DNA of 64,000 nucleotides. Origin: an uncultured Bacilli bacterium. GTDB taxonomy: Bacteria > Bacillota_I > Bacilli_A > RF39 > UBA660. This document shows positions 7,602 through 33,155 of this stretch, one piece after another. The stretch spans positions 47,644 to 111,643 of the forward strand of contig CALVYK010000001.1 in assembly GCA_944372195.1 (NCBI GenBank), in the 5' to 3' direction. The position numbers were made by a program, and so were the translations under genes. The notes under the pieces were generated by a model, which worked only from the letters and a program-made list of their open reading frames with translations, was not told the origin of the DNA and made no database searches. Each line of letters begins with the position of its first letter. Position 1 is the stretch's first letter.

Positions 7602-7725
7602 CTATAAATATTATATCGTAATTAATTGAATTATCAAATGTTATTTATATAATTAATCATTTAAAATTACAAAAATGTCATATTATTTTATTTATATTTA
7701 GTGTATAATTTAGTTGGGTGGAATT

Positions 7726-8391
7726 ATGAAAATATTAATTGTCGAAGATGATGCTACTATAAGAAGTGGTTTAAAATATTGTTTAGAATATGAAAATTTT
7801 GAAGTTGATGAAGCAATAGGTATTGATTGTTTAGATAAATTAGATAATGTTTCTTTAATTTTATTAGATTTAAATTTACCTGATACTAATGGTTTTGATT
7901 TGTTTAAAAAAATAAAAGAAATTAAGAATATTCCAATTATATTTTTAACGGCTAATGATTTGGAACCTTCCATAGTTATGGGATTAGATATGGGAGCCGA
8001 TGATTATGTAACTAAACCGTTTAAAACAAGAGAATTAATATCAAGAATTAAAAATGTTTTAAGAAGAAATAATCATTATGATCTTATAAAAATAAAAAAT
8101 ATTACAATTGATTTAAAACAAGCTAAAGTATTCAAAAATGGAAAAGACGTTAATTTAACAGCTTTAGAATATAAAATATTATTAACTTTGGCTCTTAATC
8201 CTAATCAAGTATTTACTCGGGAAAAGATTTTAGCTGATATTTGGGATGTTAATGAAGAATATGTATATGATAATACTTTAACTGTTTATATTAAAAGAAT
8301 AAGAGAAAAAATAGAAGATGATGTAACTAATCCGAAAATTATTAAAACAGTAAGAGGAATCGGCTATAAAATAGGTGATGAGAGTGAATAA
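7726..8391 (+). CDS. OmpR-family response regulator; start set at MKILIVEDD
   Basis: REC plus winged-helix domains; extended -10 TGTATAAT at 7702-7709 excludes the longer ORF-track start. Confidence 0.88.
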   Translation: MKILIVEDDATIRSGLKYCLEYENFEVDEAIGIDCLDKLDNVSLILLDLNLPDTNGFDLFKKIKEIKNIPIIFLTANDLEPSIVMGLDMGADDYVTKPFKTRELISRIKNVLRRNNHYDLIKIKNITIDLKQAKVFKNGKDVNLTALEYKILLTLALNPNQVFTREKILADIWDVNEEYVYDNTLTVYIKRIREKIEDDVTNPKIIKTVRGIGYKIGDESE

Positions 8392-9541
8392 AAAATATTT
8401 TATTGTTAATTTTATAGCTATTTTGATTATTATACTATTTTATTTTTTAATTTCTAATGTTATTAATAATAATTATGAAAAACAAATAATTGATAATGAA
8501 AGTTATTTAATTGGTAATTTAATAACTAAACATCCTGATTTAAAAGAAGATATAATATCAAGTTATTTAATTAAAGATAATTATGAAATAGGTAATGATT
8601 TAATAAATGAATACAATTTAATTACTATTAAAAATAACAATATTATTATTTTATTATATTGTTTAATAAGTGCTTTAGTATTATTTGTAATTAATTTTAT
8701 TTATATTAGAAATATCTACAAAAAAATAAGTAAAATTGATAAATATATGAACAATATTTTAAATGATGATTATTCAATTGATATTAAAGATTATTGTGAA
8801 GGGGATATTAGTAATTTAAAAAACGATATATATAAAATGACTATTAAATTAAAAGAACAAAGTGAGTTACTAATTAAAGAGAAAAAGTATTTAGAAGAAA
8901 CTTTACAAGATATATCTCATCAAATCAAAACACCTTTAACTAGTATGTATATGATAAATGATATTTTATTTAATTCCAAAGACCAAAATGTTAAAAAAGA
9001 ATTTTTAATAAAAAATAAAAATCAAATTGAAAGGATTGAATGGTTGGTAACTAGTTTACTTAAACTATCAAGACTAGAAAGTGGAACAGTTAAATTAAAA
9101 AAAGAAAAAATAAATTTAAAAGAATTAATAGATAAAGCCATTGAACCAATTAATGTTTTTTTAGAACTAAAAAATATTAAATTAATTAAAAATATCGAAG
9201 ATACTACTATTAATGTTGATATTAATTGGACTGTTGAAGCATTACTTAATATAATTAAAAATGCATGTGAACATACTCTTGATAAAATAGAAATAATAGG
9301 TAGTACTAATCCTCTTTATACCGAAATAAAAATAGTTGATAATGGTGTAGGTATTAGTAAAAAAGATATTAAACATATTTTTGAACGATTTTATAAGGGA
9401 AATCACAATAAAGAAAGTATCGGAATTGGGCTTAATATGTCTAAAAAAATAATTAATCTACAAAATGGTTTAATTGAGGTATCTTCTAAAGAAGGTGTTG
9501 GTAGTACTTTTATAATTAAGCTATATAAAAATAATTTGTGA
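8375..9541 (+). CDS. sensor histidine kinase (two TM helices, HisKA, HATPase_c)
   Basis: H-box LQDISHQIKTPLT, N and G boxes; overlaps the response-regulator stop codon. Confidence 0.85.
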   Translation: MMRVNKKYFIVNFIAILIIILFYFLISNVINNNYEKQIIDNESYLIGNLITKHPDLKEDIISSYLIKDNYEIGNDLINEYNLITIKNNNIIILLYCLISALVLFVINFIYIRNIYKKISKIDKYMNNILNDDYSIDIKDYCEGDISNLKNDIYKMTIKLKEQSELLIKEKKYLEETLQDISHQIKTPLTSMYMINDILFNSKDQNVKKEFLIKNKNQIERIEWLVTSLLKLSRLESGTVKLKKEKINLKELIDKAIEPINVFLELKNIKLIKNIEDTTINVDINWTVEALLNIIKNACEHTLDKIEIIGSTNPLYTEIKIVDNGVGISKKDIKHIFERFYKGNHNKESIGIGLNMSKKIINLQNGLIEVSSKEGVGSTFIIKLYKNNL

Positions 9542-9543
9542 CG

Positions 9544-9569
9544 AAATTGTAATTAATTTAGTCATTTAA
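9544..9569 (+). promoter_or_regulatory. conserved upstream motif AAATTGT(A/C)A(C/T)-N6-AGTCATTTAA (copy 1 of 3); candidate response-regulator direct-repeat site or promoter
   Basis: Near-identical 60-70 nt 5' regions at 9541-9613, 10972-10999 and 14264-14334 precede all three ABC genes. Confidence 0.45.
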
Positions 9570-9613: not shown

Positions 9614-10297
9614 ATGGAAATATTAAAAGTAGAAAATTTGTGCAAAAATTATGGTAAAGGAGAAACTTTAGTAAAAGCTTTAGATAATGTTAGCTTTTCA
9701 GTTGAAAAAGGTGAGTTTATTGCTATAGTAGGAAGTAGTGGTTCAGGTAAATCAACTTTATTACATATTTTAGGTGGTGTAGATAGACCAACAAGTGGAA
9801 AAGTATTTGTTGATGGAGTTGATGTATATAAATTAAACGAAACTAATTTAGCAATATTCCGTCGTCGTCAAGTTGGTTTAATTTATCAATTTTATAATTT
9901 GATTCCTATATTAAATATTAAAGAAAATATAACTTTGCCAATTTTATTAGATAATAAAAAACCAGATGAAAAATATTTAAATGAATTAATTGAAACATTA
10001 GGATTAAGTAAAAGAGTAAATCATTTACCTAATGAATTATCAGGTGGTCAACAACAAAGAGTTAGTATTGGTAGAGCTTTGATGAATAGACCGGCTTTAT
10101 TGTTAGCTGATGAACCAACTGGTAACTTGGATAGTAAAGCAGGACGTGAAATAATTGAATTATTAAAACTATCTAATCAAAAATATAAACAAACTATTAT
10201 TATGATTACTCATGATCATAATTTAGCTCTATGTGCCGATAGAATAATTACTTTAGAAGATGGTAAAATAATAAGTGATGAAAAAAATAATAAATAA
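9614..10297 (+). CDS. ABC transporter ATP-binding protein (MacB/BceA/LolD type)
   Basis: Walker A GSSGSGKST, signature LSGGQQQRV, Walker B LLLADEPT. Confidence 0.9.
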   Translation: MEILKVENLCKNYGKGETLVKALDNVSFSVEKGEFIAIVGSSGSGKSTLLHILGGVDRPTSGKVFVDGVDVYKLNETNLAIFRRRQVGLIYQFYNLIPILNIKENITLPILLDNKKPDEKYLNELIETLGLSKRVNHLPNELSGGQQQRVSIGRALMNRPALLLADEPTGNLDSKAGREIIELLKLSNQKYKQTIIMITHDHNLALCADRIITLEDGKIISDEKNNK

Positions 10298-10300
10298 TGT

Positions 10301-10329
10301 TTGACAAAATAATTAATTTATAGTAAAAT
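10301..10329 (+). promoter_or_regulatory. sigmaA promoter, module copy 1
   Basis: TTGACA (10301-6), 17-nt spacer, TAAAAT (10324-9). Confidence 0.7.
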
Positions 10330-10335
10330 GTATAT

Positions 10336-10454
10336 AGATATGAATTATTTCATATATTAAAAAAAGAGATACATTTAATTTTGGATGTTAAGTGTTTTCT
10401 CTAATTATGTTTTGTTGAGAAAACACCGTTCAAAGAAGAATCGGTGTTTTCGTT
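10336..10454 (+). ncRNA. plus-strand leader/sRNA copy 1 with hairpin-1, antiterminator and terminator alternatives
   Basis: Hairpin ACATTTAA...TTAAGTGT; GTGTTTTCTC (10398-10407) is complementary to the terminator left arm GAGAAAACAC (10418-10427). Terminator stem GAAAACACCG/CGGTGTTTTC followed by GTTT. Confidence 0.55.
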
Positions 10455-10472
10455 TAAGATTAGTCCTTATTT

Positions 10473-10559
10473 TTAAGGACTAGGATTGTGTAAAGAACAA
10501 TCATAGCAAATGCTACAATTAGTTGCATTATATATCCTTTCTATAGTTTTAATTTCCAT
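10473..10559 (-). CDS. micro-ORF 1 (28 aa) MEIKTIERIYNATNCSICYDCSLHNPSP
   Basis: RBS GGAGGTGAT (10563-71) at consensus spacing; two in-frame paralogs follow; stop codon sits inside hairpin TAGTCCTTA..TAAGGACTA (10461-82). Confidence 0.5.
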   Translation of the reverse strand: MEIKTIERIYNATNCSICYDCSLHNPSP

Positions 10560-10632
10560 AGAATCACCTCCATCTTTAAAATAAATTAAAAATAGAGTAA
10601 AACACCTAACTATTAAACATATCTCTAAATTA

Positions 10633-10661
10633 ATTATAAATTAATTTAATATAAAAGTCAA
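10633..10661 (-). promoter_or_regulatory. minus-strand sigmaA promoter for micro-ORF 1
   Basis: -35 TTGACT (complement of 10656-61), 17-nt spacer, -10 TATAAT (complement of 10633-8). Confidence 0.65.
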
Positions 10662-10690
10662 CTATAAATTAATTATTTTGCGGATTAATA

Positions 10691-10719
10691 TTGACAGTGA
10701 TGTTAATTTATAGTAAAAT
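10691..10719 (+). promoter_or_regulatory. sigmaA promoter of the degenerate module copy
   Basis: TTGACA, 17 nt, TAAAAT. Confidence 0.55.
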
Positions 10720-10734
10720 AAATATATATATGAA

Positions 10735-10797
10735 TTAATTAGTATTATAAAAATTAATTAGATTTGAATTAATCCTTTCTATAAATTTTTTAATCAT
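10735..10797 (-). pseudogene. degenerate, truncated micro-ORF copy (MIKKFIERINSNLINFYNTN)
   Basis: Retains RBS GGAGGTGATC and the conserved start region but is only 20 aa and has no recognisable minus promoter. Confidence 0.35.
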
Positions 10798-10849
10798 AGA
10801 AGATCACCTCCATATTAATGATTTTTGATGATAAAAATTATTAATACAA

Positions 10850-10957
10850 TTATTTCATATATTAAAAAAAGAGATACATTTAATTTGCAACATTAAATGT
10901 TTCCTCTATTTTGTTGGATAAAGAAAACACCATCCTTAAGTTGAACGGTGTTTTTTT
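10850..10957 (+). promoter_or_regulatory. leader copy with a strong intrinsic terminator, 85 nt upstream of FtsX permease 1
   Basis: Perfect hairpin ACATTTAAT..ATTAAATGT, then AAAACACC/GGTGTTTT plus a T7 run (10951-7). Confidence 0.55.
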
Positions 10958-10971
10958 GTTATTTAATATTA

Positions 10972-10999
10972 CAAAATTGTCACTATATAAGTCATTTAA
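10972..10999 (+). promoter_or_regulatory. conserved upstream motif copy 2 (CAAAATTGTCAC-N6-AGTCATTTAA)
   Basis: Same motif as upstream of the ATPase gene and permease 2. Confidence 0.4.
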
Positions 11000-11041
11000 A
11001 AATAATAATATTTTGTTATAATATCTTAAAGGAGTAATATT

Positions 11042-13525
11042 ATGAAAATATTAAATATTTTGACTATTAAACATTTAAAAGCAAATAAAAAAAGAACCAT
11101 TTTAACAATCATGGGAATCATGCTAGCCACTTTTTTAATGATTGAATTAGGGCTATTATTTTCTAGTTTTAGAGATAATGGAATTCGAACAACTATTAAA
11201 TATAATGGAGATTATCATGTTAATTTAAATGTGAAAAAAGAAGATTTAAATTTCATTTCTAAAAATGATAATGTTTTAGATTATAAATATAAGTCTAATT
11301 TAGGATATTCATTATATGAAGGATTACAAAATAAAAAATATCTACAAGTTTTAACAGCGTCTAAAAGTTATTTAGATGATTTAAAGTTAATTGAAGGAAG
11401 ATTACCAAATAATGAAAATGAAGTCATTATTTCAAATAATATTAAAACTGAAGGAAATGTTGATTTAAATGTTGGAGATACTATTAAATTAAATATTGGT
11501 CAAAGACAGTGTGATGGCAAATTATTAGGGGAAAGTGCTTATGTAGTTGAATATAAATATTTGAGTGATGGAACAGTAGAAATTGTAAAAGAAGAACATT
11601 TAATAAATACATCGCCAAAAGAATATAAAATTGTTGGTATCGTTGAAAAAGATATATATGAAGAATATTCTAATCCAGGATATAGTGTATTTACAATTTC
11701 AGAACCTATCGATTTATTAAATGTATATGTAAAATATAAAAATGTTTTTAAGACAATACAAAATAGTGATTCTATTATAAAAAATTTAAATTATGAAAGT
11801 GATTTAAAATATAATGATAGTTTACTTTATTATTATGGAATAGGAGAAAATAATAATTTTATTAAATTTTCAATTTCAATATTACTAATTATTTTAATAT
11901 TAATTACATTTGCAAGTGTTATTGTAATTTATAATGCTTTTGCTATATCAGTTACCGAACGAATAAAACAATTTGGTTTATTTTCAAGTATCGGCGCTAC
12001 TAAGAAACAATTAAGATATACAATATTTTTTGAAGTTTTTGTAGTAGGTACTATTGGTATTGTACTAGGATTAATTTTATCTTTTATTGGTATTAATATT
12101 ATTTTATCAATTATTAATAAATTATTAGTTAATAGTTTATCTATTCCATTAGAATTATCAATATATCCTTTATATATATTGATTTCTCTTATTTTTATTA
12201 TTTTAACTATTGCTTTAGCAGCTTATTATCCTTCTAAAAAAGCGAGTAGAGTAAGTCCTATTGAAGCAATTAGATTAAATAATGAAATTAAAATTAAAAA
12301 GTTCAGAACACCTAAATTAATTCAAAAATTAGGTATTGAAGCAGAGGTTGCTTACAAAAATATGAAAAGAAATAAGAAAAAATATAATATAACTATTTTA
12401 TCATTATTTTTAAGTATTGTTTTATATGTTTCATTTAGTTCGTTTTTAAACTATACAATTGAATCTAGTAAAGATGCTATGGATATTCCAAGTTATGATT
12501 ATTTTGTTAGATTATCTGGTAAAGATAAAAATAAAATAGATGAAATCATTAATCAAGTTTTAAATGTTGAGGGAGTAAAGCAGAATAGTTTAATTGAATT
12601 AAAAACATTAGAATCTGATTTTAATCTAGATTATTATACTGATGAAGTAATAAACGAATTTGGAATAAGTAGTAGTCCTAAACAATATGTTCATTTATAT
12701 ATGTTAGATGATAAAACATATGAACAAGTTAAAAAACAACTTAATATTAAAGATAGACCAATTTTGTTAAATTATTTAGATGAAGAGGGATGGATAAATA
12801 AAGATATCAAAGGCTTTAATTTATATAAAGATATTAGTAGTTTAAATATATATGATAATAATAATAATTTTGTTTTAGATAATATTTATATGTCTGATAT
12901 TAAAATAGAAAATGTTGAACCTTGGATTTATACATATACTTTAATTGTTGATGAAGATACATTTAATAAAATTAAAACCGATGAATATAATATAACATTA
13001 ACTTTAAATGGCGATAATTTTACTAAAGTCGATGAATTATTACATCAAGATATTTTAGATGTTAGTATTAGTACTGATAATATTAAACAAACGATGCAGG
13101 AACAATACAATACTTTATTAGCATATAAAATAATATTATATGGTTTTGTTGTTTTGATAACTTTAATCGGTGTTACTAGTGTTATTAATACAATAAATAT
13201 GAGTGTTACTTTAAGAAGACAAGAATTTGCAATGTTAAGAAGTATCGGTTTAACACCTGAAGGATTTAATAAAATGATAATTTTTGAATGTTTATTATTT
13301 GGTTTGAAATCATTAATTTATGGAATATCGATATCATTAATTATAACTTATTTATTTCATTTAGCATTTAATAAAATGGCAAAAACTAGTTTAATAATAC
13401 CATATACAAGTATAATAATATCTGTATTTAGCATATTTATAATTGTTTTAATGACTATGTGGTACACTACTAAAAAAATAAAAAAAGAAAACATTTTAGA
13501 TATTATTAGAAAAGAAAGTATTTGA
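11042..13525 (+). CDS. ABC transporter permease, FtsX/MacB-BceB family, paralog 1
   Basis: 827 aa; N-terminal TM, two large extracytoplasmic domains and two FtsX 3-4 TM bundles. Confidence 0.85.
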   Translation: MKILNILTIKHLKANKKRTILTIMGIMLATFLMIELGLLFSSFRDNGIRTTIKYNGDYHVNLNVKKEDLNFISKNDNVLDYKYKSNLGYSLYEGLQNKKYLQVLTASKSYLDDLKLIEGRLPNNENEVIISNNIKTEGNVDLNVGDTIKLNIGQRQCDGKLLGESAYVVEYKYLSDGTVEIVKEEHLINTSPKEYKIVGIVEKDIYEEYSNPGYSVFTISEPIDLLNVYVKYKNVFKTIQNSDSIIKNLNYESDLKYNDSLLYYYGIGENNNFIKFSISILLIILILITFASVIVIYNAFAISVTERIKQFGLFSSIGATKKQLRYTIFFEVFVVGTIGIVLGLILSFIGINIILSIINKLLVNSLSIPLELSIYPLYILISLIFIILTIALAAYYPSKKASRVSPIEAIRLNNEIKIKKFRTPKLIQKLGIEAEVAYKNMKRNKKKYNITILSLFLSIVLYVSFSSFLNYTIESSKDAMDIPSYDYFVRLSGKDKNKIDEIINQVLNVEGVKQNSLIELKTLESDFNLDYYTDEVINEFGISSSPKQYVHLYMLDDKTYEQVKKQLNIKDRPILLNYLDEEGWINKDIKGFNLYKDISSLNIYDNNNNFVLDNIYMSDIKIENVEPWIYTYTLIVDEDTFNKIKTDEYNITLTLNGDNFTKVDELLHQDILDVSISTDNIKQTMQEQYNTLLAYKIILYGFVVLITLIGVTSVINTINMSVTLRRQEFAMLRSIGLTPEGFNKMIIFECLLFGLKSLIYGISISLIITYLFHLAFNKMAKTSLIIPYTSIIISVFSIFIIVLMTMWYTTKKIKKENILDIIRKESI

Positions 13526-13550
13526 CAAAATAATTAATCTATAGTAAAAT
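13522..13550 (+). promoter_or_regulatory. sigmaA promoter, module copy 2 (overlaps the permease 1 stop codon)
   Basis: TTGACA, 17 nt, TAAAAT. Confidence 0.65.
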
Positions 13551-13556
13551 GTATAT

Positions 13557-13671
13557 AGATATGAATTAATTCATATACTAAAAAAAGAGATACATTTAAT
13601 TTCCTATGTTAAGTGCTTTCTCTGTTAATTTTTTGGAAAGCACCGTTCAAAGCTGATCGGTGTTTTATTTT
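13557..13671 (+). ncRNA. plus-strand leader/sRNA copy 2
   Basis: Same architecture as copy 1. Carries GTGCTTTC and GAAAGCAC, a compensatory change relative to copy 1; terminator AAAGCACCG/CGGTGTTTT. Confidence 0.55.
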
Positions 13672-13769
13672 AATCTTTGTTTTTTATTGCTAATACTGTA
13701 TAAAATACAATCATAGAAAATATTATAACTAATTGCATTTGAAGTCCTTTCATTTGTTCTGAAGGTCAT
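13665..13769 (-). CDS. micro-ORF 2 (34 aa) MTFRTNERTSNAISYNIFYDCILYSISNKKQRLK
   Basis: RBS GGAGGTGATC; paralog of micro-ORFs 1 and 3 with a C-terminal extension. Confidence 0.45.
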   Translation of the reverse strand: MTFRTNERTSNAISYNIFYDCILYSISNKKQRLK

Positions 13770-13835
13770 AAAGATCACCTCCGTTTTTACTAAAACAGAG
13801 TAAAACACCTAACTATTAAATATATCTCTAAATTA

Positions 13836-13864
13836 GTTATAAATTAATTTGATACAAAAGTCAA
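13836..13864 (-). promoter_or_regulatory. minus-strand promoter for micro-ORF 2
   Basis: -35 TTGACT (complement of 13859-64), 17-nt spacer, -10 TATAAC. Confidence 0.55.
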
Positions 13865-13888
13865 CTATAAATTAATCACTTAATATTA

Positions 13889-13917
13889 TTGACAAAATAA
13901 TTAATCTATAGTAAAAT
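13889..13917 (+). promoter_or_regulatory. sigmaA promoter, module copy 3
   Basis: TTGACA, 17 nt, TAAAAT. Confidence 0.65.
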
Positions 13918-13923
13918 GTATAT

Positions 13924-14043
13924 AGGTATGAATTAATTCATATATTAAAAAAAGAGATACATTTAATTTTGCATGTTAAGTGTTTTCCCTATATTGTTTG
14001 TGTGAAAAAACACCGTTCAAAGTTGAATCGGTGTTTTCATTTA
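13924..14043 (+). ncRNA. plus-strand leader/sRNA copy 3
   Basis: Hairpin-1 plus terminator GAAAAAACACCG/CGGTGTTTTC followed by ATTT. Confidence 0.55.
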
Positions 14044-14059
14044 AGATTAGTCCTTATTT

Positions 14060-14146
14060 TTAAGGACTAGAATTGTATAAAATACAATCATAGCAAATGC
14101 TACAATTAATTGCATTTGAAGTCCTTTCATTTATATTGAAGGTCAT
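14060..14146 (-). CDS. micro-ORF 3 (28 aa) MTFNINERTSNAINCSICYDCILYNSSP
   Basis: RBS GGAGGTGATC (14151-9); stop codon inside hairpin 14048-14069. Confidence 0.5.
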   Translation of the reverse strand: MTFNINERTSNAINCSICYDCILYNSSP

Positions 14147-14212
14147 AAAGATCACCTCCGTTTCTACTAAAACAGAGTAAAACACCTAACTATTAAACAT
14201 ATCTCTAAATTA

Positions 14213-14241
14213 ATTATAAATTAATTTAGTATAAAAATCAA
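14213..14241 (-). promoter_or_regulatory. minus-strand promoter for micro-ORF 3
   Basis: -35 TTGATT, 17-nt spacer, -10 TATAAT (complement of 14213-8). Confidence 0.55.
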
Positions 14242-14263
14242 TTATAAATTAACACAATATGAC

Positions 14264-14290
14264 AAAATTGTCACGGCATTAGTCATTTAA
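14264..14290 (+). promoter_or_regulatory. conserved upstream motif copy 3
   Basis: GACAAAATTGTCAC GGCATT AGTCATTTAA; the downstream 5'UTR is about 85% identical to 9560-9613. Confidence 0.4.
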
Positions 14291-14334
14291 TTGTAATAAT
14301 AATTTAATACAATTATTATGGAGGGAGAAATAAT

Positions 14335-16911
14335 ATGAAAATATTAAATAATTTAACAATTAAACACTTAAAAGCAAATAAAAAAAGAACTATAGTAACA
14401 ATTATAGGTATTATTTTATCAACTGCTTTAATGGTTGGAATTGGATTGTTATTTTCAACAGTAAGAGATAATTCAGTGAAAATGATCATTGAAAATAATG
14501 GTGATCATCACGTGGCAATTGAACTAGAAAAATCTAAATTAGATTTTATTGCTAAAAACGATAGTGTATTAAAATATAAATATAAATCTAGTTTAGGTTA
14601 TTCATTATATGAAGGTATTAATAATGAGTATAAACCTTATATTAAAGTATTAACAGCATCAGATGAATATTTAAATGATTTAAAACTGATAGAAGGAAGA
14701 TTACCTAATAACGAAAACGAAATAGTTATACCTGAACATTTAGAAACTAATGGCGAAGTAAAATTAAATATTGGTGATAAAATTGTTTTAAATATCGGCC
14801 AAAGAGTAGCTAATGATGGAACATTATTGGGCGACACTCCATATGTTTATGAATATTCTTGTGATGAAAATAATGTTTGTACAACAGATGTTAATAAATC
14901 AGATGAACATTTAATTAATACTGTAAAGAAAGAATATACAGTAGTAGGAATTATAGAAAGAGATATTCAAGAAGATTATCAAGATCCAGGATATAATGCT
15001 TTTACATTATCTGAACCTAGTGATTTATTAACTGTTTATGTTAATTATAAAAATATTAAAGATACATATAAAAATACCAAAATTATTGCTAAGAATTTAG
15101 GTAATGAAGAAGTATATGATAATTTATATTATGGTATAAGTTATAATGATAATTTACTGGCATTTTCTGGTGTATCTAATTATAGTAATATGATAGATTC
15201 TATGGCGTTTATTATAATTATAATTCTAGCTTTAGTTTCAATTGCTTGTATTATTGTTATATATAATTCATTTGCTATTTCGGTAATGGAAAGGAAAAAA
15301 CAATTTGGTTTATTTTCAAGTATCGGTGCTACTAAAAAACAATTAAAGCATACTGTATTTTTTGAAGCTTTTATAGTAGGTATTATTGGTATACCATTAG
15401 GTGTTTTATCAGCTTATTTAGGTATTGGAATAGTTTTAATGATCGTTAATAAATTATTACCTAATATGTTTGATTTCCCACTTGCCTTAGCGACATATCC
15501 ATTATTCATTATTATTCCAATAATATTTATGATAATAACAATATTAGTTTCAGCTTTCTTACCAGCTAGAAGTGCTAGTAAAGTAAGTCCTATTGAAGCT
15601 ATTAGATTAAATGATGATATAAAAATAAAATCAAAAAAATTAAAAACACCTAAAATAATTAAATTTTTTGGTGTTGAAGGTGAAATAGCTTATAAAAATA
15701 TGAAAAGAAATAAGAAAAAATATCGAATAACTATAATTTCATTATTTATAAGCATAGTATTATTTGTATCATTTAGTAGCTTATTAAAATATGGATTAAG
15801 AAGTGTTTATGATTATACTGAACTACCAGAATATGAATATACATTTAATATGAGTAGTGATAATAAAGAAAGTATAGATAATATAATTAATCAAGTCTTA
15901 AAAGTAGATGGTATTAGAAAATATAGTATAATTAGACCAATTTATTATTATGCTGATAAAAATGATGATTATTATACAAAAGAATTAAAAGATAGTTATG
16001 ATGAAAGTTCTTTTGAAAATGATGTTATAAATATAATGATTCTTACTTTAGATAATAAATCTTATGAACAATATAAAAAAGAAATCAAATTAAATTCAGA
16101 TTATCCAATTTTATTAAATATATTAAATAAAATAGATTATACAGATAATTCGAGAAAACAAATTAAAATAACACCTTACAATAAAATTACTTCTTTAGAA
16201 ATATTTAGTTATGATAAAAAAGTAAATCATAAATTAGAAAATATATTTATAACTGATATTTTACCATTTGGTGTTGATAATACTTATGTTAATACTATGA
16301 TGTTTGTAGTTAATGAAAGTATGTATAATGAATTAAAATATGATAATAATTATCAATTAGAAATGTGTTTAATAGCTGATAATTATGATGAATTTGATAA
16401 AATGTTAGATAGTGAAAGTAAAGAAAATATTTTAACAGATGATATAAGCATCTATACTATGAATATTAAAAAAGAAATGCAATTATTATCCAATATAGTA
16501 TTTGTTATTAAATTATTATTATATGGTTTTATTAGTTTAGTAACATTAATCGGTATTACTAGTGTAATAAATACTATTAATACTAGTATAGCTTTAAGAA
16601 AAAAAGAATTTGCCGTATTAAGAAGTATTGGACTTACTCCTCATGGATTTAATAAAATGATGTTATTTGAATGTTTATTCTTTGGACTTAAGTCATTATT
16701 ATATGGTTTACCTGTTTCATTTATAGTTATATATTTATTCCATTTATCATTTAATGGTATTGTAGCATTTGATAGTTTGTTAATACCATATGGAAGTATA
16801 TTAATAGCTATATTTGGAGTATTTATTATAGTTTTAATAAGTATGTGGTATGCTACTATAAGAATTAAAAAAGCCAATATTTTAGATGCAATAAGAGAAG
16901 AAAATATTTAA
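14335..16911 (+). CDS. ABC transporter permease, FtsX/MacB-BceB family, paralog 2
   Basis: 858 aa, about 50% identical to permease 1, same topology. Confidence 0.85.
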   Translation: MKILNNLTIKHLKANKKRTIVTIIGIILSTALMVGIGLLFSTVRDNSVKMIIENNGDHHVAIELEKSKLDFIAKNDSVLKYKYKSSLGYSLYEGINNEYKPYIKVLTASDEYLNDLKLIEGRLPNNENEIVIPEHLETNGEVKLNIGDKIVLNIGQRVANDGTLLGDTPYVYEYSCDENNVCTTDVNKSDEHLINTVKKEYTVVGIIERDIQEDYQDPGYNAFTLSEPSDLLTVYVNYKNIKDTYKNTKIIAKNLGNEEVYDNLYYGISYNDNLLAFSGVSNYSNMIDSMAFIIIIILALVSIACIIVIYNSFAISVMERKKQFGLFSSIGATKKQLKHTVFFEAFIVGIIGIPLGVLSAYLGIGIVLMIVNKLLPNMFDFPLALATYPLFIIIPIIFMIITILVSAFLPARSASKVSPIEAIRLNDDIKIKSKKLKTPKIIKFFGVEGEIAYKNMKRNKKKYRITIISLFISIVLFVSFSSLLKYGLRSVYDYTELPEYEYTFNMSSDNKESIDNIINQVLKVDGIRKYSIIRPIYYYADKNDDYYTKELKDSYDESSFENDVINIMILTLDNKSYEQYKKEIKLNSDYPILLNILNKIDYTDNSRKQIKITPYNKITSLEIFSYDKKVNHKLENIFITDILPFGVDNTYVNTMMFVVNESMYNELKYDNNYQLEMCLIADNYDEFDKMLDSESKENILTDDISIYTMNIKKEMQLLSNIVFVIKLLLYGFISLVTLIGITSVINTINTSIALRKKEFAVLRSIGLTPHGFNKMMLFECLFFGLKSLLYGLPVSFIVIYLFHLSFNGIVAFDSLLIPYGSILIAIFGVFIIVLISMWYATIRIKKANILDAIREENI

Positions 16912-17120: not shown

Positions 17121-17139
17121 ATATTTAATATTTGTTTGA

Positions 17140-17325
17140 AAGAGTATATATATTGATTAAATAGAGAGCTGGTGTTGGGTGAAAATCAGTTAAGAAATAT
17201 ATAGAAAGACATCAAACTATAAAATAATCGGTTAATCCCGTTAAAGATTTAAGAGCATAGAATTCTATGAAATAAGGTGGCACCGCGATATTATTCGTCC
17301 TTATATTTATAGGATTTTTTTAATT
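17140..17325 (+). promoter_or_regulatory. T-box riboswitch leader (Asp specifier GAC)
   Basis: Stem-I AGAGA; specifier context AAAGACA (GAC 17208-10); T-box sequence AAGGTGGCACCGCG at 17272-87; U-tract 17316-23. Confidence 0.75.
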
Positions 17326-17338
17326 ATGAGGAGGATTT

Positions 17339-19072
17339 ATGAAAGTAAATAATAATACAGATTTTAATATTAAAAATGTAGGTGAAGTAGTAACATTATA
17401 TGGTTGGGTTGCTAAAAAAAGAAATTTAGGTGGTTTAATATTTATTGATTTAAGGGATAGAAGCGGCATTATTCAGTTAGTTGTTAAGCCGGATAATAAA
17501 TATTACGATTTGGCTGAATCTTTAAAAAATGAATATGTTATTAAAGTAGTAGGAAGTATAACTGAAAGAGAAAGTAAAAACAAAATTTTATTAACTGGTG
17601 ATATTGAAGTTATAATTAATGAATTAGAAGTATTAAATACTAGTATCGATTTACCTTTTAATTTAAATGATACTACGGCTTTAGAAGATACAAGATTAAA
17701 ATATCGTTATTTAGATTTAAGAAGAAGTGAAATAAAAGAAAAGTTAGAAGCTAGACATAAAATTACTTTTGCAATAAGAGAATATTTAAATAAATTAAAT
17801 TTCTTAGAAATTGAAACTCCAATTTTATGTAAAAGTACACCTGAAGGAGCAAGAGACTATTTAGTTCCATCTCGTATATTTAATGGTAAATTTTATGCTT
17901 TACCTCAATCACCACAAATATTTAAACAATTATTAATGATTGGTGGTATGGAAAGATATTTTCAAATTGCTAAATGTTTTAGAGATGAAGATTTAAGAGC
18001 AGATCGACAACCTGAATTTACGCAAGTTGATATGGAAATGAGTTTTGTAACTGAAGATGATGTTATGAATCTAACTGAAGGATTAATTGCTTATATTTTT
18101 AAACAAGTAAAAAATATTGATATTAAATTACCTTTAAGAAAAATGAAATATGATGATGCAATAGAATATTATGGATCTGATAAACCTGATTTAAGATTTG
18201 ATATGAAAATTAATGACATAACTGATATTTTTAAAAATACAGAATTTACTATTTTTAAAGATGTATTAAATAATAATGGTATTATTAATTGTTTAGTTGT
18301 TAAAAATAATGCGGATAAATTTTCAAGAAAAGATATTGATAAATTAACTGATTTTGTTAAAACATATAAAGCAAAAGGTTTGGTTTATCTTAAAATAGAT
18401 AATGAAGTAACAGGAAGTATTGCTAAGGTTATCTCTTTAGAAGAATTAAACAATTTGAAATCTAAATTAAATTTAGAAAATAATGATTTAATTTTAATAA
18501 TATCTGATAAAAAACAAGTAGTAAAACAAGCATTGGGTGCTTTAAGATTACATTTAGGTAAACAATTAAATTTAATAAGTGACAATTATGAATTATTATG
18601 GGTTGTTGATTTTCCATCTTTTGAGTATAGTGAAGAAGAAAATAGATATGTAGCTTGTCACCATCCTTTTACCGCTCCAAAAGATAGTGATATCGATAAA
18701 CTATTAACTGATAAAGCTAACTGTTATTCTAAAGCTTATGACATTGTAATTAATGGTTATGAAGCTGGTGGTGGAAGCATTAGAATTCATGATCAAGGAG
18801 TTCAAAAGAAAATGTTTGAAGCATTAGAATTGACAGACGAACAAATTAAAGAAAAATTTGGTTTCTTCGTTGATGCATTAAAATACGGAACACCTCCACA
18901 TGGTGGTTTAGCGTTAGGTTTAGATAGATTAACTATGCTACTTACAAATACAGAAAATATAAGAGATGTTATTGCATTTCCTAAAACTGCTAGTGCATCT
19001 GATTTAATGAGTGAATGTCCAAATGTAGTAGATGAAAAGCAACTAAAAGAGTTAGGTATAAAAACAGTTTAG
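17339..19072 (+). CDS. aspS: aspartate--tRNA ligase
   Basis: Class II aaRS motifs (FRDEDLRADRQPEFTQVD; GGGSIRIH; GLDRL). Confidence 0.92.
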   Translation: MKVNNNTDFNIKNVGEVVTLYGWVAKKRNLGGLIFIDLRDRSGIIQLVVKPDNKYYDLAESLKNEYVIKVVGSITERESKNKILLTGDIEVIINELEVLNTSIDLPFNLNDTTALEDTRLKYRYLDLRRSEIKEKLEARHKITFAIREYLNKLNFLEIETPILCKSTPEGARDYLVPSRIFNGKFYALPQSPQIFKQLLMIGGMERYFQIAKCFRDEDLRADRQPEFTQVDMEMSFVTEDDVMNLTEGLIAYIFKQVKNIDIKLPLRKMKYDDAIEYYGSDKPDLRFDMKINDITDIFKNTEFTIFKDVLNNNGIINCLVVKNNADKFSRKDIDKLTDFVKTYKAKGLVYLKIDNEVTGSIAKVISLEELNNLKSKLNLENNDLILIISDKKQVVKQALGALRLHLGKQLNLISDNYELLWVVDFPSFEYSEEENRYVACHHPFTAPKDSDIDKLLTDKANCYSKAYDIVINGYEAGGGSIRIHDQGVQKKMFEALELTDEQIKEKFGFFVDALKYGTPPHGGLALGLDRLTMLLTNTENIRDVIAFPKTASASDLMSECPNVVDEKQLKELGIKTV

Positions 19073-23967: not shown

Positions 23968-24813
23968 TTGAAAAAATCAAAGAAAAAAATACTAAATATA
24001 AAAAAGATAAATAATAAATTTGCAATTACTAATATAATGTGTTTTGTAATATTATGTATAGTATTTTCTTTGGCTGTATCTGGAATTAAAAAACTGGAAA
24101 TTAATGACGCTAAACTAAAATTATCAGATAAAGATGTTGGTAATGAAATAAATCAAGAAGAAGTGAATAACGATGACATAGACTTAGCGTTTGTGTATGT
24201 TGGTTCAAAAGAGACACCTCAAACACTTCCTGGTAAGGGTGCAGGCTATTATGTTCAAAATGTAAGTTGTAAAAATGGAACAGCAAAATGGAGTAATGAT
24301 TTATGGTCTTTAACTAATGTTAGCGTTGAAAATGGCAAACAAATGGCTTGTTTACTAACATTAGGGGATACCGCTACATATGATGATACAATTGATCAAA
24401 GCTTTTCAAATTTGAAACCAGAAAATATTGTTTCTGGAGTTCAAATTGGTGATATTATTGGAACGGGTGAGAGACAAAAAACACTAATAGCGGCAGTATA
24501 TGTAACTAGCGCTAATACTTATGGTGATTTTTATAATGGTTCTTATTATGTCAGGTATGTTAAAAATAATGAATGGAGTGGAGCGGTTTATAATACAACG
24601 GGAAGAACATTGATTGCTTCATCGTTTATAGCTTTTTCAGATTGTGGATTTAGAATTAACGGAGTTCAATATGTTGGCCTTCATGGAAGTGGTAATTTTT
24701 CTATAATTAGTGGAAATCTTGGAAATATTGCGTTGCAAAATGTTTCAGGAATTGCTAGTGCTATGGGTGATGGTGAAAATGGAATTATTTATATTTTTGG
24801 AGAGGTACGTTAG
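23968..24813 (+). CDS. membrane-anchored protein with a C-terminal about 210-aa cassette domain (TTG start)
   Basis: RBS AAAAGGAG; C-terminal 24181-24813 about 85% nt identical to 27161-27794. Confidence 0.6.
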   Translation: MKKSKKKILNIKKINNKFAITNIMCFVILCIVFSLAVSGIKKLEINDAKLKLSDKDVGNEINQEEVNNDDIDLAFVYVGSKETPQTLPGKGAGYYVQNVSCKNGTAKWSNDLWSLTNVSVENGKQMACLLTLGDTATYDDTIDQSFSNLKPENIVSGVQIGDIIGTGERQKTLIAAVYVTSANTYGDFYNGSYYVRYVKNNEWSGAVYNTTGRTLIASSFIAFSDCGFRINGVQYVGLHGSGNFSIISGNLGNIALQNVSGIASAMGDGENGIIYIFGEVR

Positions 24814-24956
24814 AATTACTAGGAATTTTAATCAAATAATTTTAAATAATAAATTAAAAAGATTATTTTTATTTAATAAAAAAACATGTTATTTATTTGT
24901 ATGATAAATATAAATAGTTATGTAAAAAATAATCATGAAATAGTTAAGGAGAGAGT

Positions 24957-27794: not shown

Positions 27795-27892
27795 ATTTTA
27801 TACTAGGAAGAATATTTTAGTAAATATTTAAAAGTTTGATTATAGCAAATAATTGGTTAAAATATAAAAGAATACATATAAATACTTGACAA

Positions 27893-28040
27893 ACATATAA
27901 TAAATGGTATAATTATATACGAAATGAAGAAGGAAAGCGAGTATTCTCCACCTGATAGCACATTAGCTATGGGTTATAAGCCATTTATTTTGCGTTTATA
28001 AAAGGTGGATACTATATTTGTGTCTACTTTTTTATTGTTG
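27893..28040 (+). promoter_or_regulatory. infC-rpmI-rplT leader (putative L20-autoregulatory structure) with promoter TTGACA..TATAAT
   Basis: Promoter cTTGACAaacatataataaatggTATAAT; long-range helix TCCACCT...AGGTGGA. Confidence 0.45.
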
Positions 28041-32225: not shown

Positions 32226-32251
32226 GACATATTAAGATTTATGTCTTTTTT
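32224..32251 (+). terminator. intrinsic terminator
   Basis: AAGACATA ttaagat TATGTCTT TTTT. Confidence 0.7.
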
Positions 32252-32301
32252 GTTTACGATTTTGTTTACGATTTGACAATTTTAAAAATTAATATTATAA
32301 T
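32251..32301 (+). promoter_or_regulatory. Fic gene promoter with tandem 11-bp direct repeat TGTTTACGATT x2
   Basis: Repeats at 32251-61 and 32264-74; TTGACA (32273-8), 17-nt spacer, TATAAT (32296-301). Confidence 0.55.
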
Positions 32302-32328
32302 AATCACTCAAAAAAGGGGGGAACCTTT

Positions 32329-33132: not shown

Positions 33133-33155
33133 AAACTCTATTTAAGTAGAGTTTT
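33132..33155. terminator. bidirectional terminator
   Basis: AAAACTCTA tttaag TAGAGTTTT. Confidence 0.7.

What the first reader, a model, noticed from the sequence alone, without database searches (positions are those of the whole stretch)
10336..10362. Near-perfect 18-bp palindrome at the transcription start of every leader copy (ATATGAATTAATTCATAT)
Immediately downstream of each -10 element lies a palindrome.
- Copy 1: ATATGAATTATTTCATAT.
- Copy 2: ATATGAATTAATTCATAT at 13558-13575, which is perfect.
- Copy 3: GTATGAATTAATTCATAT at 13926-13943.

The position overlapping +1 is typical of a dimeric repressor operator. Alternatively it could form a 5' stem-loop that stabilises the RNA. It is conserved more strongly than the surrounding sequence.
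Basis: seen in the sequence. Interest (0 to 1): 0.55.

Follow-up and report, generated by a model that had tools for sequence, protein, structure and literature searches.

The report
5' hairpin of a small RNA
The AT-rich palindrome is most likely not a repressor binding site but the first hairpin of a conserved, unannotated ~110-base small RNA that faces a tiny hydrophobic-peptide gene, which looks like a toxin–antitoxin pair inserted several times in an antibiotic-peptide resistance locus of an uncultured gut bacterium.

Summary
Each starts 9 nt after a near-consensus TTGACA-17-TAAAAT promoter. A fourth unit carries the palindrome split by a 107-nt insert.

Two claims fail. The palindrome is not better conserved than its flanks; it is the most variable part of an ~85-nt conserved block. 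AT-rich palindromes of this size are also common in this 22-25% GC window.

Homologues from other uncultured Bacilli/Mycoplasmatota MAGs and metagenome contigs keep a hairpin at the same position. They change its sequence, loop and arm spacing:
- ATGAAG-GAAA-CTTCAT
- ATGCAA-GAAA-TTGCAT
- ATGAG-CAAGA-CTCAT
- AAGAAC-TTGGTT-GTTCTT

These include compensatory and G·U changes. That fits an RNA stem-loop, not an operator for one conserved dimeric repressor.

The hairpin is SL1 of a ~110-nt RNA (SL1, SL2, terminator). This RNA converges on a 22-aa hydrophobic-peptide gene and shares a bidirectional terminator with it, a par-like type I toxin-antitoxin layout.

The locus response regulator has its own GraR/BceR-type box elsewhere. 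No transcription start, stability effect or toxicity has been measured. The result is ordinary in kind, but the RNA/peptide family appears undescribed.

The parts
10301..10329 (+). Promoter of small RNA copy 1 (TTGACA-17-TAAAAT). The -35 box starts 4 nt after the ATPase stop codon.
   Evidence: 11/12 match. The hexamers are invariant in 43 distinct units while the spacer varies.
10338..10355 (+). SL1 of small RNA copy 1, which is the flagged palindrome (7-bp stem ATATGAA/TTCATAT, loop TTAT).
   Evidence: forms in the MFE and centroid folds; pairing kept with compensatory changes.
10337..10451 (+). Predicted small RNA copy 1 (~115 nt). It consists of SL1, an A-rich linker, SL2 (10365-10402) and an intrinsic terminator (10419-10451).
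   Evidence: Covariance-model hit 124.8 bits. Fold z = -5.5. RNAalifold recovers SL2 and the terminator.
10460..10528 (-). Candidate toxin ORF 1, MQLIVAFAMIVLYTILVLKNKD (22 aa), preceded by a GAAAGGA Shine-Dalgarno.
   Evidence: 16 distinct peptide variants, 15 of them clear relatives with a hydrophobic core and a charged KNKD-type tail.
10473..10559 (-). Overlapping out-of-frame leader ORF 1, behind the strong SD GGAGGTGA (10564-10571). The SD is sequestered in hairpin 10568-10597.
   Evidence: The leader ORF is not conserved as a protein: it is only 4 codons long in L136.
10633..10661 (-). Promoter of toxin mRNA 1 (TTGACT-17-TATAAT), convergent with the small-RNA promoter.
   Evidence: 11/12 match.
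10691..10954 (+). Split or degenerate unit. It has a promoter (10691-10719), the left half of SL1 (10728-10740), a 107-nt insert with SD and leader-ORF remnant (10741-10847), the right half of SL1 (10848-10860), then SL2 and the terminator. There is no toxin ORF.
   Evidence: 85.1 bits. The same split unit occurs in L001, L002, L005, L007, L016, L028, L031 and L048.
13522..13550 (+). Promoter of small RNA copy 2. The permease-1 stop codon TGA lies inside the -35 TTGACA.
13559..13576 (+). SL1 of copy 2 (the perfect palindrome).
13558..13666 (+). Predicted small RNA copy 2.
   Evidence: 114 bits. Fold z = -5.05.
13670..13753 (-). Candidate toxin ORF 2 (MKGLQ-MQLVIIFSMIVFYTVLAIKNKD). The 22-aa core runs from the second ATG at 13738. 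The leader ORF is 13665-13769, the SD hairpin 13779-13800 and the promoter 13836-13864.
13889..13917 (+). Promoter of small RNA copy 3.
13926..13943 (+). SL1 of copy 3 (GTATGAATTAATTCATAT). The first pair is G·U in RNA.
   Evidence: SL1 is in the centroid structure.
13925..14037 (+). Predicted small RNA copy 3.
   Evidence: 122.3 bits.
14047..14130 (-). Candidate toxin ORF 3 (MKGLQ-MQLIVAFAMIVFYTILVLKNKD). The leader ORF is 14060-14146, the SD hairpin 14156-14177 and the promoter 14213-14241.

Best explanation
The palindrome is the DNA image of SL1, the 5'-terminal stem-loop of a ~110-nt small RNA.

How the RNA is made and folds:
- It is transcribed from the strong TTGACA-17-TAAAAT promoter.
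- Transcription is predicted to start 0-2 nt before the hairpin.
- The RNA folds into SL1, an A-rich linker, SL2 and an intrinsic terminator.

Its genomic partner:
- The RNA runs towards a convergently transcribed mRNA.
- That mRNA encodes a 22-aa hydrophobic peptide and a short overlapping leader ORF.
- The strong Shine-Dalgarno of the leader ORF is locked in a hairpin.
- The two transcripts share one bidirectional terminator.

The most likely mechanism is a type I toxin-antitoxin-like pair of par-like layout, with the small RNA as the antitoxin. SL1 would cap the RNA's 5' end. That would limit 5'-end-dependent decay (RNase J/Y-type) and so set the level of the antitoxin RNA.

Shown here: the anatomy, the conservation of the fold, and the compensatory changes. 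Inferred: the transcription start, the stabilising role, the toxicity of the peptide, and the site where the two RNAs pair.
For: 1. Position. The hairpin starts 9 nt after the -10 hexamer in the main type and in L019, L021, L064 and L136, and 10 nt after it in the L145 group.

2. Pairing is kept while the sequence changes:
- main type ATATGAA-TTAW/TTGT-TTCATAT
- L019/L025 ATGAAG-GAAA-CTTCAT
- L021 ATGAAA-GAAA-TTTCAT
- L064/L140/L150 ATGCAA-GAAA-TTGCAT
- L136 ATGAG-CAAGA-CTCAT, although its promoter and downstream core are nearly identical to the main type
- L145/L075/L132/L091/L045 AAGAAC-TTGGTT-GTTCTT
.

3. Pair counts.
- On a hand-anchored alignment, 93.7% of cells pair and 4 of 6 pairs change on both sides. 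In 500 shuffles, 0 reached the observed covariation score and 0-2 reached the other measures. Slid controls pair in 25-56% of cells.
- On a covariance-model alignment of 55 distinct sequences, helix 1 pairs in 95.2% of cells and 6 of 7 pairs change on both sides.

4. G·U variants on the + strand: G1·U18, G7·U12 in L018, and A to G in L132.

5. Folding. SL1 + SL2 + terminator is the MFE fold in five of six diverged homologues and is in the centroid of the sixth, with z from -3.9 to -6.5.

6. Module anatomy: convergent near-consensus promoters, a shared terminator, SD-sequestering hairpins and conserved hydrophobic 22-aa peptides.

7. Toxin-antitoxin-like asymmetry. All 39 distinct toxin units have a convergent small RNA. 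Small-RNA-only units exist, and no toxin-only unit was seen.

8. Published background. 5' stem-loops protect bacterial RNAs, and RNase J1/Y prefer accessible 5' ends (PMC7509114). The par system combines convergent promoters, a bidirectional terminator and an SD-sequestering 5' stem-loop (PMC7472228).
Against: - No transcription start, transcript or half-life data exist for this uncultured organism.
- The stem is weak (-3.7 to -6.1 kcal/mol alone) and almost all A-U.
- Hairpins of this size are common in this AT-rich DNA.
- The number of independent compensatory events is small, about 4-5 lineages.
- The SL1 alignments were anchored on the structure (A3, A4) or fitted to it (A7), so they lean towards pairing.
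- Two variants break a pair as A·C on the + strand (L001 position 12; window 13576). The G·U asymmetry is therefore only about 4 to 2.
- The region where the small RNA pairs with the toxin mRNA, beyond the shared terminator, could not be identified.
- The peptides match no known toxin family.
Confidence: 0.6

Rival explanations
1. Operator: the palindrome is bound at +1 by a dimeric DNA-binding repressor, possibly the locus response regulator, which shuts off the promoter.
For: There is dyad symmetry directly downstream of the -10, overlapping the predicted +1. Symmetric changes of both arms would also preserve a DNA palindrome.
Against: - Arm sequence, loop and arm spacing differ between homologues: 4 nt in the main type, 5 in L136, 6 in L019, L064 and L145. 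The centres (GAAA, CAAGA) are asymmetric, which does not suit one conserved dimer.
- L136 keeps the promoter and downstream core almost unchanged but has a remodelled palindrome.
- In the window there are no further copies at other promoters.
- No regulator gene travels with the module. L019 and L064 sit in unrelated contexts.
- The locus response regulator has a GraR/BceR-type box upstream of its four genes.
- G·U variants break DNA symmetry.
Confidence: 0.08
2. Target-recognition element: SL1, rather than or as well as stabilising the RNA, pairs in trans with the translation-initiation region of the toxin mRNA (SD and AUG of the leader ORF). This would be analogous to the DRa/DRb interaction of par RNA II.
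For: In some modules the SL1 arms are complementary to GGAGGUGAU(U/C)UUCAUG-type initiation regions. Examples are window copy 1 (E = -10.3, z = -2.3) and L019+1655 (E = -13.0, z = -3.6). In DNA terms this is an imperfect direct repeat.
Against: - The result is inconsistent. Across distinct modules, E ranges from -3.5 to -13 and z from +0.8 to -3.6.
- The perfect-palindrome copies (window copies 2 and 3) score at chance.
- The L064 arms (AUGCAA) do not covary with its initiation region, which stays GAUUUCUAUG.
- Any A/U-rich sequence pairs loosely with a purine-rich SD through G·U pairs.
Confidence: 0.15
3. Leader or attenuator: the promoter, palindrome and terminator form a cis-regulatory leader that controls read-through into the downstream transporter gene.
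For: The RNA has mutually exclusive pairings. The SL2 3' arm and tail (GUGUUUUCUC) can pair with the 5' strand of the terminator (GAGAAAACAC), like an antiterminator. This complementarity is kept when the terminator sequence changes in the L145 group. In L003 and L004 the unit lies directly upstream of the permease gene.
Against: - In most units the terminator is followed by a convergent gene on the other strand.
- The transporter genes have their own promoters with a response-regulator box.
- The same unit occurs in unrelated contexts (L019, L064).
- There is no Rfam match.
Confidence: 0.05
4. No specific function: an AT-rich palindrome that happens to lie in a repeated unit and is copied along with it.
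For: Such palindromes are frequent here. The three window copies are not independent. One lineage tolerates a 107-nt insertion in the loop.
Against: Hairpin potential is retained at the same position in at least five diverged lineages, with different sequences and compensatory changes. The split unit has also lost its toxin gene, so it may be a decaying copy.
Confidence: 0.1

Closest known systems
par (RNA I/Fst - RNA II) type I toxin-antitoxin loci of Enterococcus faecalis pAD1 and their chromosomal relatives
   Same: - Convergent promoters.
- A small RNA and a toxin mRNA sharing one bidirectional intrinsic terminator.
- A 5' stem-loop in the toxin mRNA that sequesters the Shine-Dalgarno.
- A small hydrophobic peptide with a charged C-terminal tail.
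- A chromosomal copy lying between paralogous transporter operons (PMC7472228; window anatomy).
   Different: - The peptide lacks the Fst PXXXG(C) motif and matches no Pfam or NCBIfam toxin family.
- No clear DRa/DRb-type repeats give complementarity at the initiation region.
- The small RNA is ~110 nt with three stem-loops, not ~40-65 nt.
- There is an extra overlapping leader ORF.
- The small RNA and the toxin 5' UTR are paralogous: the same sequence in the same sense.
hok/mok/sok of plasmid R1
   Same: A leader ORF with the strong ribosome-binding site overlaps the toxin ORF out of frame, suggesting translational coupling. The toxin mRNA 5' element is complementary to its own 3' end, giving a fold-back. 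This comparison rests on established knowledge of hok/sok.
   Different: The small RNA here is not encoded antisense to the leader-ORF initiation region; it overlaps the mRNA only at the terminator. There is no Hok-family sequence match. The host is Gram-positive-type.
5'-terminal stabilising stem-loops (E. coli ompA 5' UTR; B. subtilis aprE and ermC leaders)
   Same: A short hairpin within a few nucleotides of the predicted 5' end, kept by compensatory changes. This class is known to protect RNAs from 5'-end-dependent decay (Emory 1992 and Hambraeus 2002, as cited in PMC7509114).
   Different: Here it sits on a non-coding small RNA. It is much weaker (about -4 to -6 kcal/mol). Neither the 5' end nor any effect on half-life has been measured.
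GraR/BceR-type response-regulator operators (ACAAA-TTTGT; TGACA-N4-TGTCA)
   Same: These are also AT-rich inverted repeats in a Bce-type locus.
   Different: That motif is a different sequence. It lies upstream of the -35 of the regulator, ATPase and permease genes (7667, 9539, 10969, 14260), not at +1 of the small-RNA promoter.

Membership tests
Dimeric-repressor operator at +1 | Half-site sequence and spacing conserved among homologous promoters | tested here: not met
   Arm sequences differ and the spacing is 4, 5 or 6 nt. The centres GAAA and CAAGA are asymmetric.
Dimeric-repressor operator at +1 | Further copies at other promoters (a regulon), or a linked regulator gene | tested here: not met
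   In the window the motif occurs only inside the repeat units. The modules occur in unrelated gene contexts. The locus response regulator has a separate GraR/BceR-type box. Only 64 kb of the genome could be searched.
Dimeric-repressor operator at +1 | Specific protein binding | not testable with these tools
   Needs EMSA or pull-down.
5'-terminal stabilising RNA stem-loop | Base pairing maintained by compensatory changes | tested here: met
   (4-6 pairs change on both sides; 94-95% of cells pair). Caveat: the alignments were anchored on or fitted to the structure, and the independent events are few.
5'-terminal stabilising RNA stem-loop | Hairpin within a few nucleotides of the RNA's 5' end | tested here: inconclusive
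   The distance from the -10 to the first paired base is constant at 9-10 nt, which predicts a 0-3 nt 5' overhang. No transcription start data exist.
5'-terminal stabilising RNA stem-loop | Removing the hairpin shortens the half-life | not testable with these tools
   Needs a rifampicin chase with SL1 mutants.
par/Fst type I toxin-antitoxin | Convergent promoters and a shared bidirectional intrinsic terminator | tested here: met
   The feature list comes from PMC7472228.
par/Fst type I toxin-antitoxin | Intramolecular 5' stem-loop sequestering the toxin SD | tested here: met
   CTCTGTTT/AAACGGAG hairpins at 13779-13800 and 14156-14177, and a longer version at 10568-10597. They are kept with different loops in L019, L064 and L145.
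par/Fst type I toxin-antitoxin | DRa/DRb direct repeats giving complementarity over the toxin initiation region | tested here: inconclusive
   Complementarity between SL1 and the initiation region is seen in some modules only (z from +0.8 to -3.6). No consistent site emerged.
par/Fst type I toxin-antitoxin | Fst-type toxin (PXXXG(C) motif, Pfam Fst_toxin) | tested here: not met
   The peptides contain no Pro or Gly in the hydrophobic core. There is no Pfam or NCBIfam hit at E up to 1 and 10 respectively.
Type I toxin-antitoxin (general) | The peptide is toxic and the RNA neutralises it | not testable with these tools
   Only indirect support: all 39 distinct toxin units have a small RNA, and orphan small RNAs exist but no orphan toxin.
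Known RNA families (Rfam 15) | Match at the gathering score | tested here: not met
   The only hit in the window is a T-box at 17128. At E up to 10 only chance-level hits appear, for example rli28 at 22.6 bits against a gathering score of 45.
Transcription attenuator or riboswitch leader | Terminator followed by a co-oriented regulated gene with no promoter of its own | tested here: not met
   What follows is a convergent gene or a new promoter with a response-regulator box.

The most novel reading that the evidence does not exclude
The hairpin caps the antitoxin RNA of a previously undescribed type I toxin-antitoxin family. Its features would be:
- a 22-aa toxin;
- a mok-like overlapping leader ORF;
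- par-like convergent transcripts with a shared terminator;
- a small RNA and a toxin 5' UTR that are paralogous, each carrying a copy of the terminator's 3' strand. That would allow fold-back or strand exchange.

The family is amplified in tandem inside a BceRS-AB-type antimicrobial-peptide resistance locus of uncultured Mycoplasmatota-like gut bacteria. There the small-RNA promoters overlap the stop codons of the transporter genes. Induction of the transporter could therefore change the antitoxin-to-toxin balance.
Probability: 0.3. Interest if true: 0.55.

Novelty: new member of a known kind. Interest (0 to 1): 0.38.

Why it matters
- The palindrome should not be pursued as a response-regulator operator or used to define a regulon. 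The likely operator of this Bce-type locus is a different inverted repeat.
- The repeated 'leaders' are better read as a family of small-RNA and small-peptide modules that annotation pipelines, Rfam, Pfam and NCBIfam all miss.
- If the peptide is toxic, this adds a type I toxin-antitoxin family from a poorly known, uncultured, very AT-rich gut lineage.
- It would also be a case where such modules are embedded between the genes of an antimicrobial-peptide resistance transporter.
- The hairpin itself is a textbook kind of element.

Tried and rejected
- **Rfam.** The gathering scan of the whole window and the E ≤ 10 scan of 10200-14400 found no family for either strand. The only sub-threshold match to the toxin mRNA, rli28, is at chance level.
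- **Pfam and NCBIfam on the peptides.** Nothing was found beyond a 14.5-bit match to a mycoplasma membrane-protein model.
- **blastn against plasmids and phages.** A whole module gave no match in either collection.
- **Viral contig scan with the core motif.** It gave 4 hits, none passing the family filter used.
- **Metagenome scan.** It still yielded L048, L064, L128, L136, L140, L150 and, through nhmmer, the L145 group.
- **Search for the RNA-RNA interaction site.**
  - Whole-RNA duplex prediction gave long, non-specific A/U duplexes.
  - SL1 against the toxin initiation region gave inconsistent results.
  - By eye, I compared the SL2 loop with the toxin start codon. UUGCAU pairs with AUGCAA in copy 3 but is mismatched or absent in other modules, so I rejected it.
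- **MAFFT and RNAalifold on unanchored sequences.** These misalign SL1 between lineages, so SL1 is absent from that consensus. I therefore used N-padded anchored alignments and a covariance model.
- **Alternative genetic code (UGA = Trp).** I rejected this because the 827- and 858-aa permease ORFs are intact under table 11.
- **First automated count of orphan units.** It was too noisy and I replaced it with a marker-based count.
Full report
**1. Observation**

The three palindromes exist:
- ATATGAATTATTTCATAT at 10338-10355
- GTATGAATTAATTCATAT at 13926-13943

Each lies 8 nt downstream of the -10 hexamer of a TTGACA-17-TAAAAT promoter that matches 11 of 12 consensus positions.

A fourth unit has the same promoter at 10691-10719, but its palindrome is interrupted. 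The left half is at 10728-10740 and the right half at 10848-10860, with a 107-nt insert between them.

The three copies are not independent. They belong to a ~375-nt repeat unit present three and a half times between the genes of a two-component/ABC-transporter locus.

In this 21-30% GC window such palindromes are not rare. There are 4 perfect 18-mers and 50 with at most one mismatched pair. Markov simulations gave 2.2±1.3 and 38±6.5. There are also 39 perfect 7-bp/4-nt hairpins against 19.8±4.6 expected.

The claim that the palindrome is better conserved than its surroundings is wrong. In 43 distinct close homologues it has 5 variable columns of 18. The promoter hexamers, the 8-nt discriminator and the downstream AGAGATACATTTAATT block are essentially invariant. 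The imperfect form is the majority (21/43), and the variation lies at the two central positions.

**2. Context**

The locus encodes these genes:
- an OmpR-type response regulator (7714-8391)
- a histidine kinase (8375-9541)
- an ABC ATPase (9614-10297)
- two paralogous FtsX-type permeases (11042-13525 and 14335-16911)

This is a BceRS-AB-like module.

Each of the four transcription units is preceded by the inverted repeat TGACAAAATTGTCAC or a close variant, at 7667, 9539, 10969 and 14260. That is 4 matches against 0.58 expected. The motif is the GraR/BceR-type operator, ACAAA-TTTGT or TGACA-N4-TGTCA (PMC3128592). The locus regulator therefore already has a plausible operator, and it is not the flagged palindrome.

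**3. What the repeat unit is**

On the + strand the unit reads, in order:
- the promoter
- the palindrome
- an A-rich linker
- the invariant AAAGAGATACATTTAATTT
- a second hairpin
- a G+C-containing hairpin followed by a T-run

On the - strand, converging on the same hairpin, there is:
- a second near-consensus promoter (TTGACT-17-TATAAT)
- a 5' UTR
- a strong Shine-Dalgarno (GGAGGTGAT) buried in a hairpin, which the scanner listed as 'terminator-like' at 13779-13800 and 14156-14177
- a short ORF starting 6-8 nt after that SD
- out of frame with it, a 22-aa hydrophobic ORF with its own GAAAGGA SD

Among 39 distinct units the peptide occurs in 16 distinct variants, 21-22 aa long. Fifteen are clear relatives, such as MQLIVAFAMIVLYTILVLKNKD and MNLIIIFAMIVFYTVLAIKNKD. 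One (MEYLIMTLLIILAMDKFLNNKR) is divergent. All have a hydrophobic core and a charged tail.

The upstream ORF is not conserved as a protein. It is only MIIK in L136.

The terminator is palindromic and has T-runs on both strands, so it serves both transcripts.

This layout matches the par/Fst type I toxin-antitoxin loci: convergent promoters, a shared bidirectional terminator and an SD-sequestering 5' stem-loop (PMC7472228). It adds a hok/mok-like overlapping leader ORF.

**4. Relatives elsewhere**

Exact-pattern scans with the invariant 19-mer, which lies outside the palindrome, found the unit in several sources:
- MAGs labelled uncultured Bacilli
- an 'uncultured Tenericutes' MAG
- Candidatus Faecisoma merdavium (Mycoplasmatota incertae sedis)
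- metagenome contigs

Most close copies sit in the orthologous Bce-like locus, whose proteins are 83-99% identical. The number of units there varies. In L003 and L004 the ATPase-permease gap holds only the + strand unit, with no peptide gene.

Diverged copies lie in other contexts:
- three modules in L019
- L025
- L021, with a truncated peptide gene
- L064, L140 and L150
- L136, where the module is upstream of the ATPase homologue

.

An nhmmer search of the fetched loci revealed a still more distant group: L145, L075, L132, L091 and L045.

There is no match in the plasmid or phage collections. There is also no match in Rfam, Pfam or NCBIfam.

**5. The test of the palindrome**

All lineages keep a hairpin at the same place, starting 9-10 nt after the -10. 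They do not keep the same sequence.

| Lineage | 5' arm - loop - 3' arm |
|---|---|
| main type | ATATGAA - TTAT/TTAA/TTGT - TTCATAT |
| L019/L025 | ATGAAG - GAAA - CTTCAT |
| L021 | ATGAAA - GAAA - TTTCAT |
| L064/L140/L150 | ATGCAA - GAAA - TTGCAT |
| L136 | ATGAG - CAAGA - CTCAT |
| L145 group | AAGAAC - TTGGTT - GTTCTT |

L136 is telling. Its promoter and downstream core are almost identical to the main type, yet its palindrome is remodelled.

Pair counts support a helix:
- On an alignment anchored by hand on the hairpin (N-padded, A4), 93.7% of cells pair. Four of six pairs change on both sides. In 500 shuffles, 0 reached the observed covariation score and 0-2 reached the other measures. 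Slid controls pair in only 25-56% of cells (one search gives the smaller set).
- On an alignment made with a covariance model built from main-type sequences only (R1), helix 1 pairs in 95.2% of cells over 55 distinct sequences. Six of seven pairs change on both sides.

Both alignments lean towards the structure, and the independent events number only about four or five lineages. I therefore treat this as good but not overwhelming support.

Features that separate an RNA hairpin from a protein operator:
- The distance between the arms is 4, 5 or 6 nt.
- The centres are asymmetric, and GAAA is a GNRA tetraloop.
- Several variants are G·U on the + strand (G1·U18; G7·U12 in L018; A to G in L132).

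Two variants are A·C on the + strand, so this last argument is weak.

**6. The RNA as a whole**

Six diverged homologues fold into the same three-part structure. SL1 sits at the very 5' end. SL2 has an outer AGAGA/UCUCU helix, an inner ACAUUUAA/UUAAGUGU helix and a variable 7-9 nt loop. The terminator follows. z-scores range from -3.9 to -6.5.

RNAalifold recovers SL2 and the terminator. In SL2 it reports only one-sided, wobble-compatible changes. The model-based count agrees: helices 2 and 3 show no both-sided changes, while the terminator has three pairs that change on both sides.

SL1 alone is weak, at -3.7 to -6.1 kcal/mol.

**7. Mechanism**

I consider the following sequence of events most likely:
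1. RNA polymerase starts at the purine 7-8 nt after the -10.
2. The first 18-20 nt then fold into SL1, leaving 0-2 unpaired 5' nucleotides.
3. A 5'-terminal hairpin hinders 5'-end-dependent decay. Such protection by stem-loops, and the 5'-end preference of RNase J1 and RNase Y, are established (PMC7509114).
4. This would raise the steady-state level of a small RNA that acts as the antitoxin of the convergent peptide gene.

The antitoxin role is supported only indirectly:
- the par-like anatomy;
- an asymmetry typical of toxin-antitoxin systems. All 39 distinct peptide units are paired with a small RNA. Small-RNA-only units and units with truncated peptide genes exist. No peptide-only unit was seen.

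I could not find the contact site between the two RNAs beyond the ~33-nt terminator overlap.

The possibility that SL1 itself pairs with the SD/AUG region of the leader ORF is kept as a rival. It fits window copy 1 (E = -10.3) and one L019 module (E = -13.0, z = -3.6). It does not fit the perfect-palindrome copies or L064.

**8. Comparison and novelty**

The hairpin is a member of a well-known class, the 5'-terminal RNA stem-loops.

The module works like a par-type type I toxin-antitoxin system, but I do not file it as an Fst-family member:
- The peptide lacks the PXXXG motif and any family match.
- The DRa/DRb repeats are not evident.
- The small RNA is larger.

The RNA and peptide family itself appears to be undescribed in the libraries searched.

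**9. Verdict**

- The operator reading is unlikely (about 0.1).
- The RNA stem-loop reading is likely (about 0.6-0.7 for 'transcribed 5' hairpin', lower for the specific stabilising role).
- The finding is ordinary in kind.
- It has moderate interest because it exposes an unannotated toxin-antitoxin-like family embedded in an antimicrobial-peptide resistance locus.

Noticed in passing
window 7667-7681, 9539-9553, 10969-10983, 14260-14274: The GraR/BceR-type inverted repeat (TGACAAAATTGTCAC and variants) lies upstream of the response-regulator, ATPase and both permease genes. It is the likely operator of the locus regulator and implies four separately controlled promoters.
   Followed up: partly
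window 10691-10954 (insert 10741-10847): One small-RNA unit has a 107-nt insert exactly in the SL1 loop. The insert carries a Shine-Dalgarno and a remnant leader ORF on the - strand. The same split unit is conserved in L001, L002, L005, L007, L016, L028, L031 and L048, so it is old. It may be a mini-insertion (AATT on both sides) or a rearranged, decaying module.
   Followed up: partly
window 10386-10402 / 10605-10620 / 10442-10451; L145 4440-4640: The small RNA (SL2 3' arm and tail, UUAAGUGUUUUC) and the toxin 5' UTR (UUAGGUGUUUUAC) both copy the 3' strand of the shared terminator (CGGUGUUUUC). In the distant L145 group all three change together to UAGAUGUUU. This suggests a conserved alternative pairing: a fold-back or antiterminator, or strand exchange between the two RNAs.
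   Followed up: partly
window 10295-10306 and 13520-13527: The small-RNA promoters abut or overlap the stop codons of the transporter genes. The TAA of the ATPase lies 4 nt before TTGACA, and the TGA of permease 1 lies inside TTGACA. Transcription of the transporter genes must therefore run into the small-RNA unit and probably ends at its terminator.
   Followed up: no
L004 6209-6349 (- strand): One strain variant has a ~40-nt internal duplication that fuses the leader ORF and the toxin ORF into a 46-aa ORF. Gene callers annotated it. The 22-aa ORFs themselves are never called.
   Followed up: no
L003 5684-5925, L004 3336-3573, L008 ~2120-2356, L009, L018, L128: The number of modules between the ATPase and permease genes varies between closely related genomes, from a small RNA alone to one and a half modules. 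This indicates recent gain or loss by recombination between the repeats.
   Followed up: partly
window 17128-17305 (+): A T-box leader (115 bits) lies upstream of the 577-aa ORF at 17339-19072.
   Followed up: no
window 24001-28000 and 32001-36000: There is a local rise in G+C to 0.30 and, further on, a stretch with negative GC skew in an otherwise positive-skew window. This may reflect a block of genes on the other strand or foreign DNA.
   Followed up: no
window 34592, 41702, 63472: Three other perfect 18-nt palindromes occur in the window. They are unrelated to the repeat unit and were not examined.
   Followed up: no
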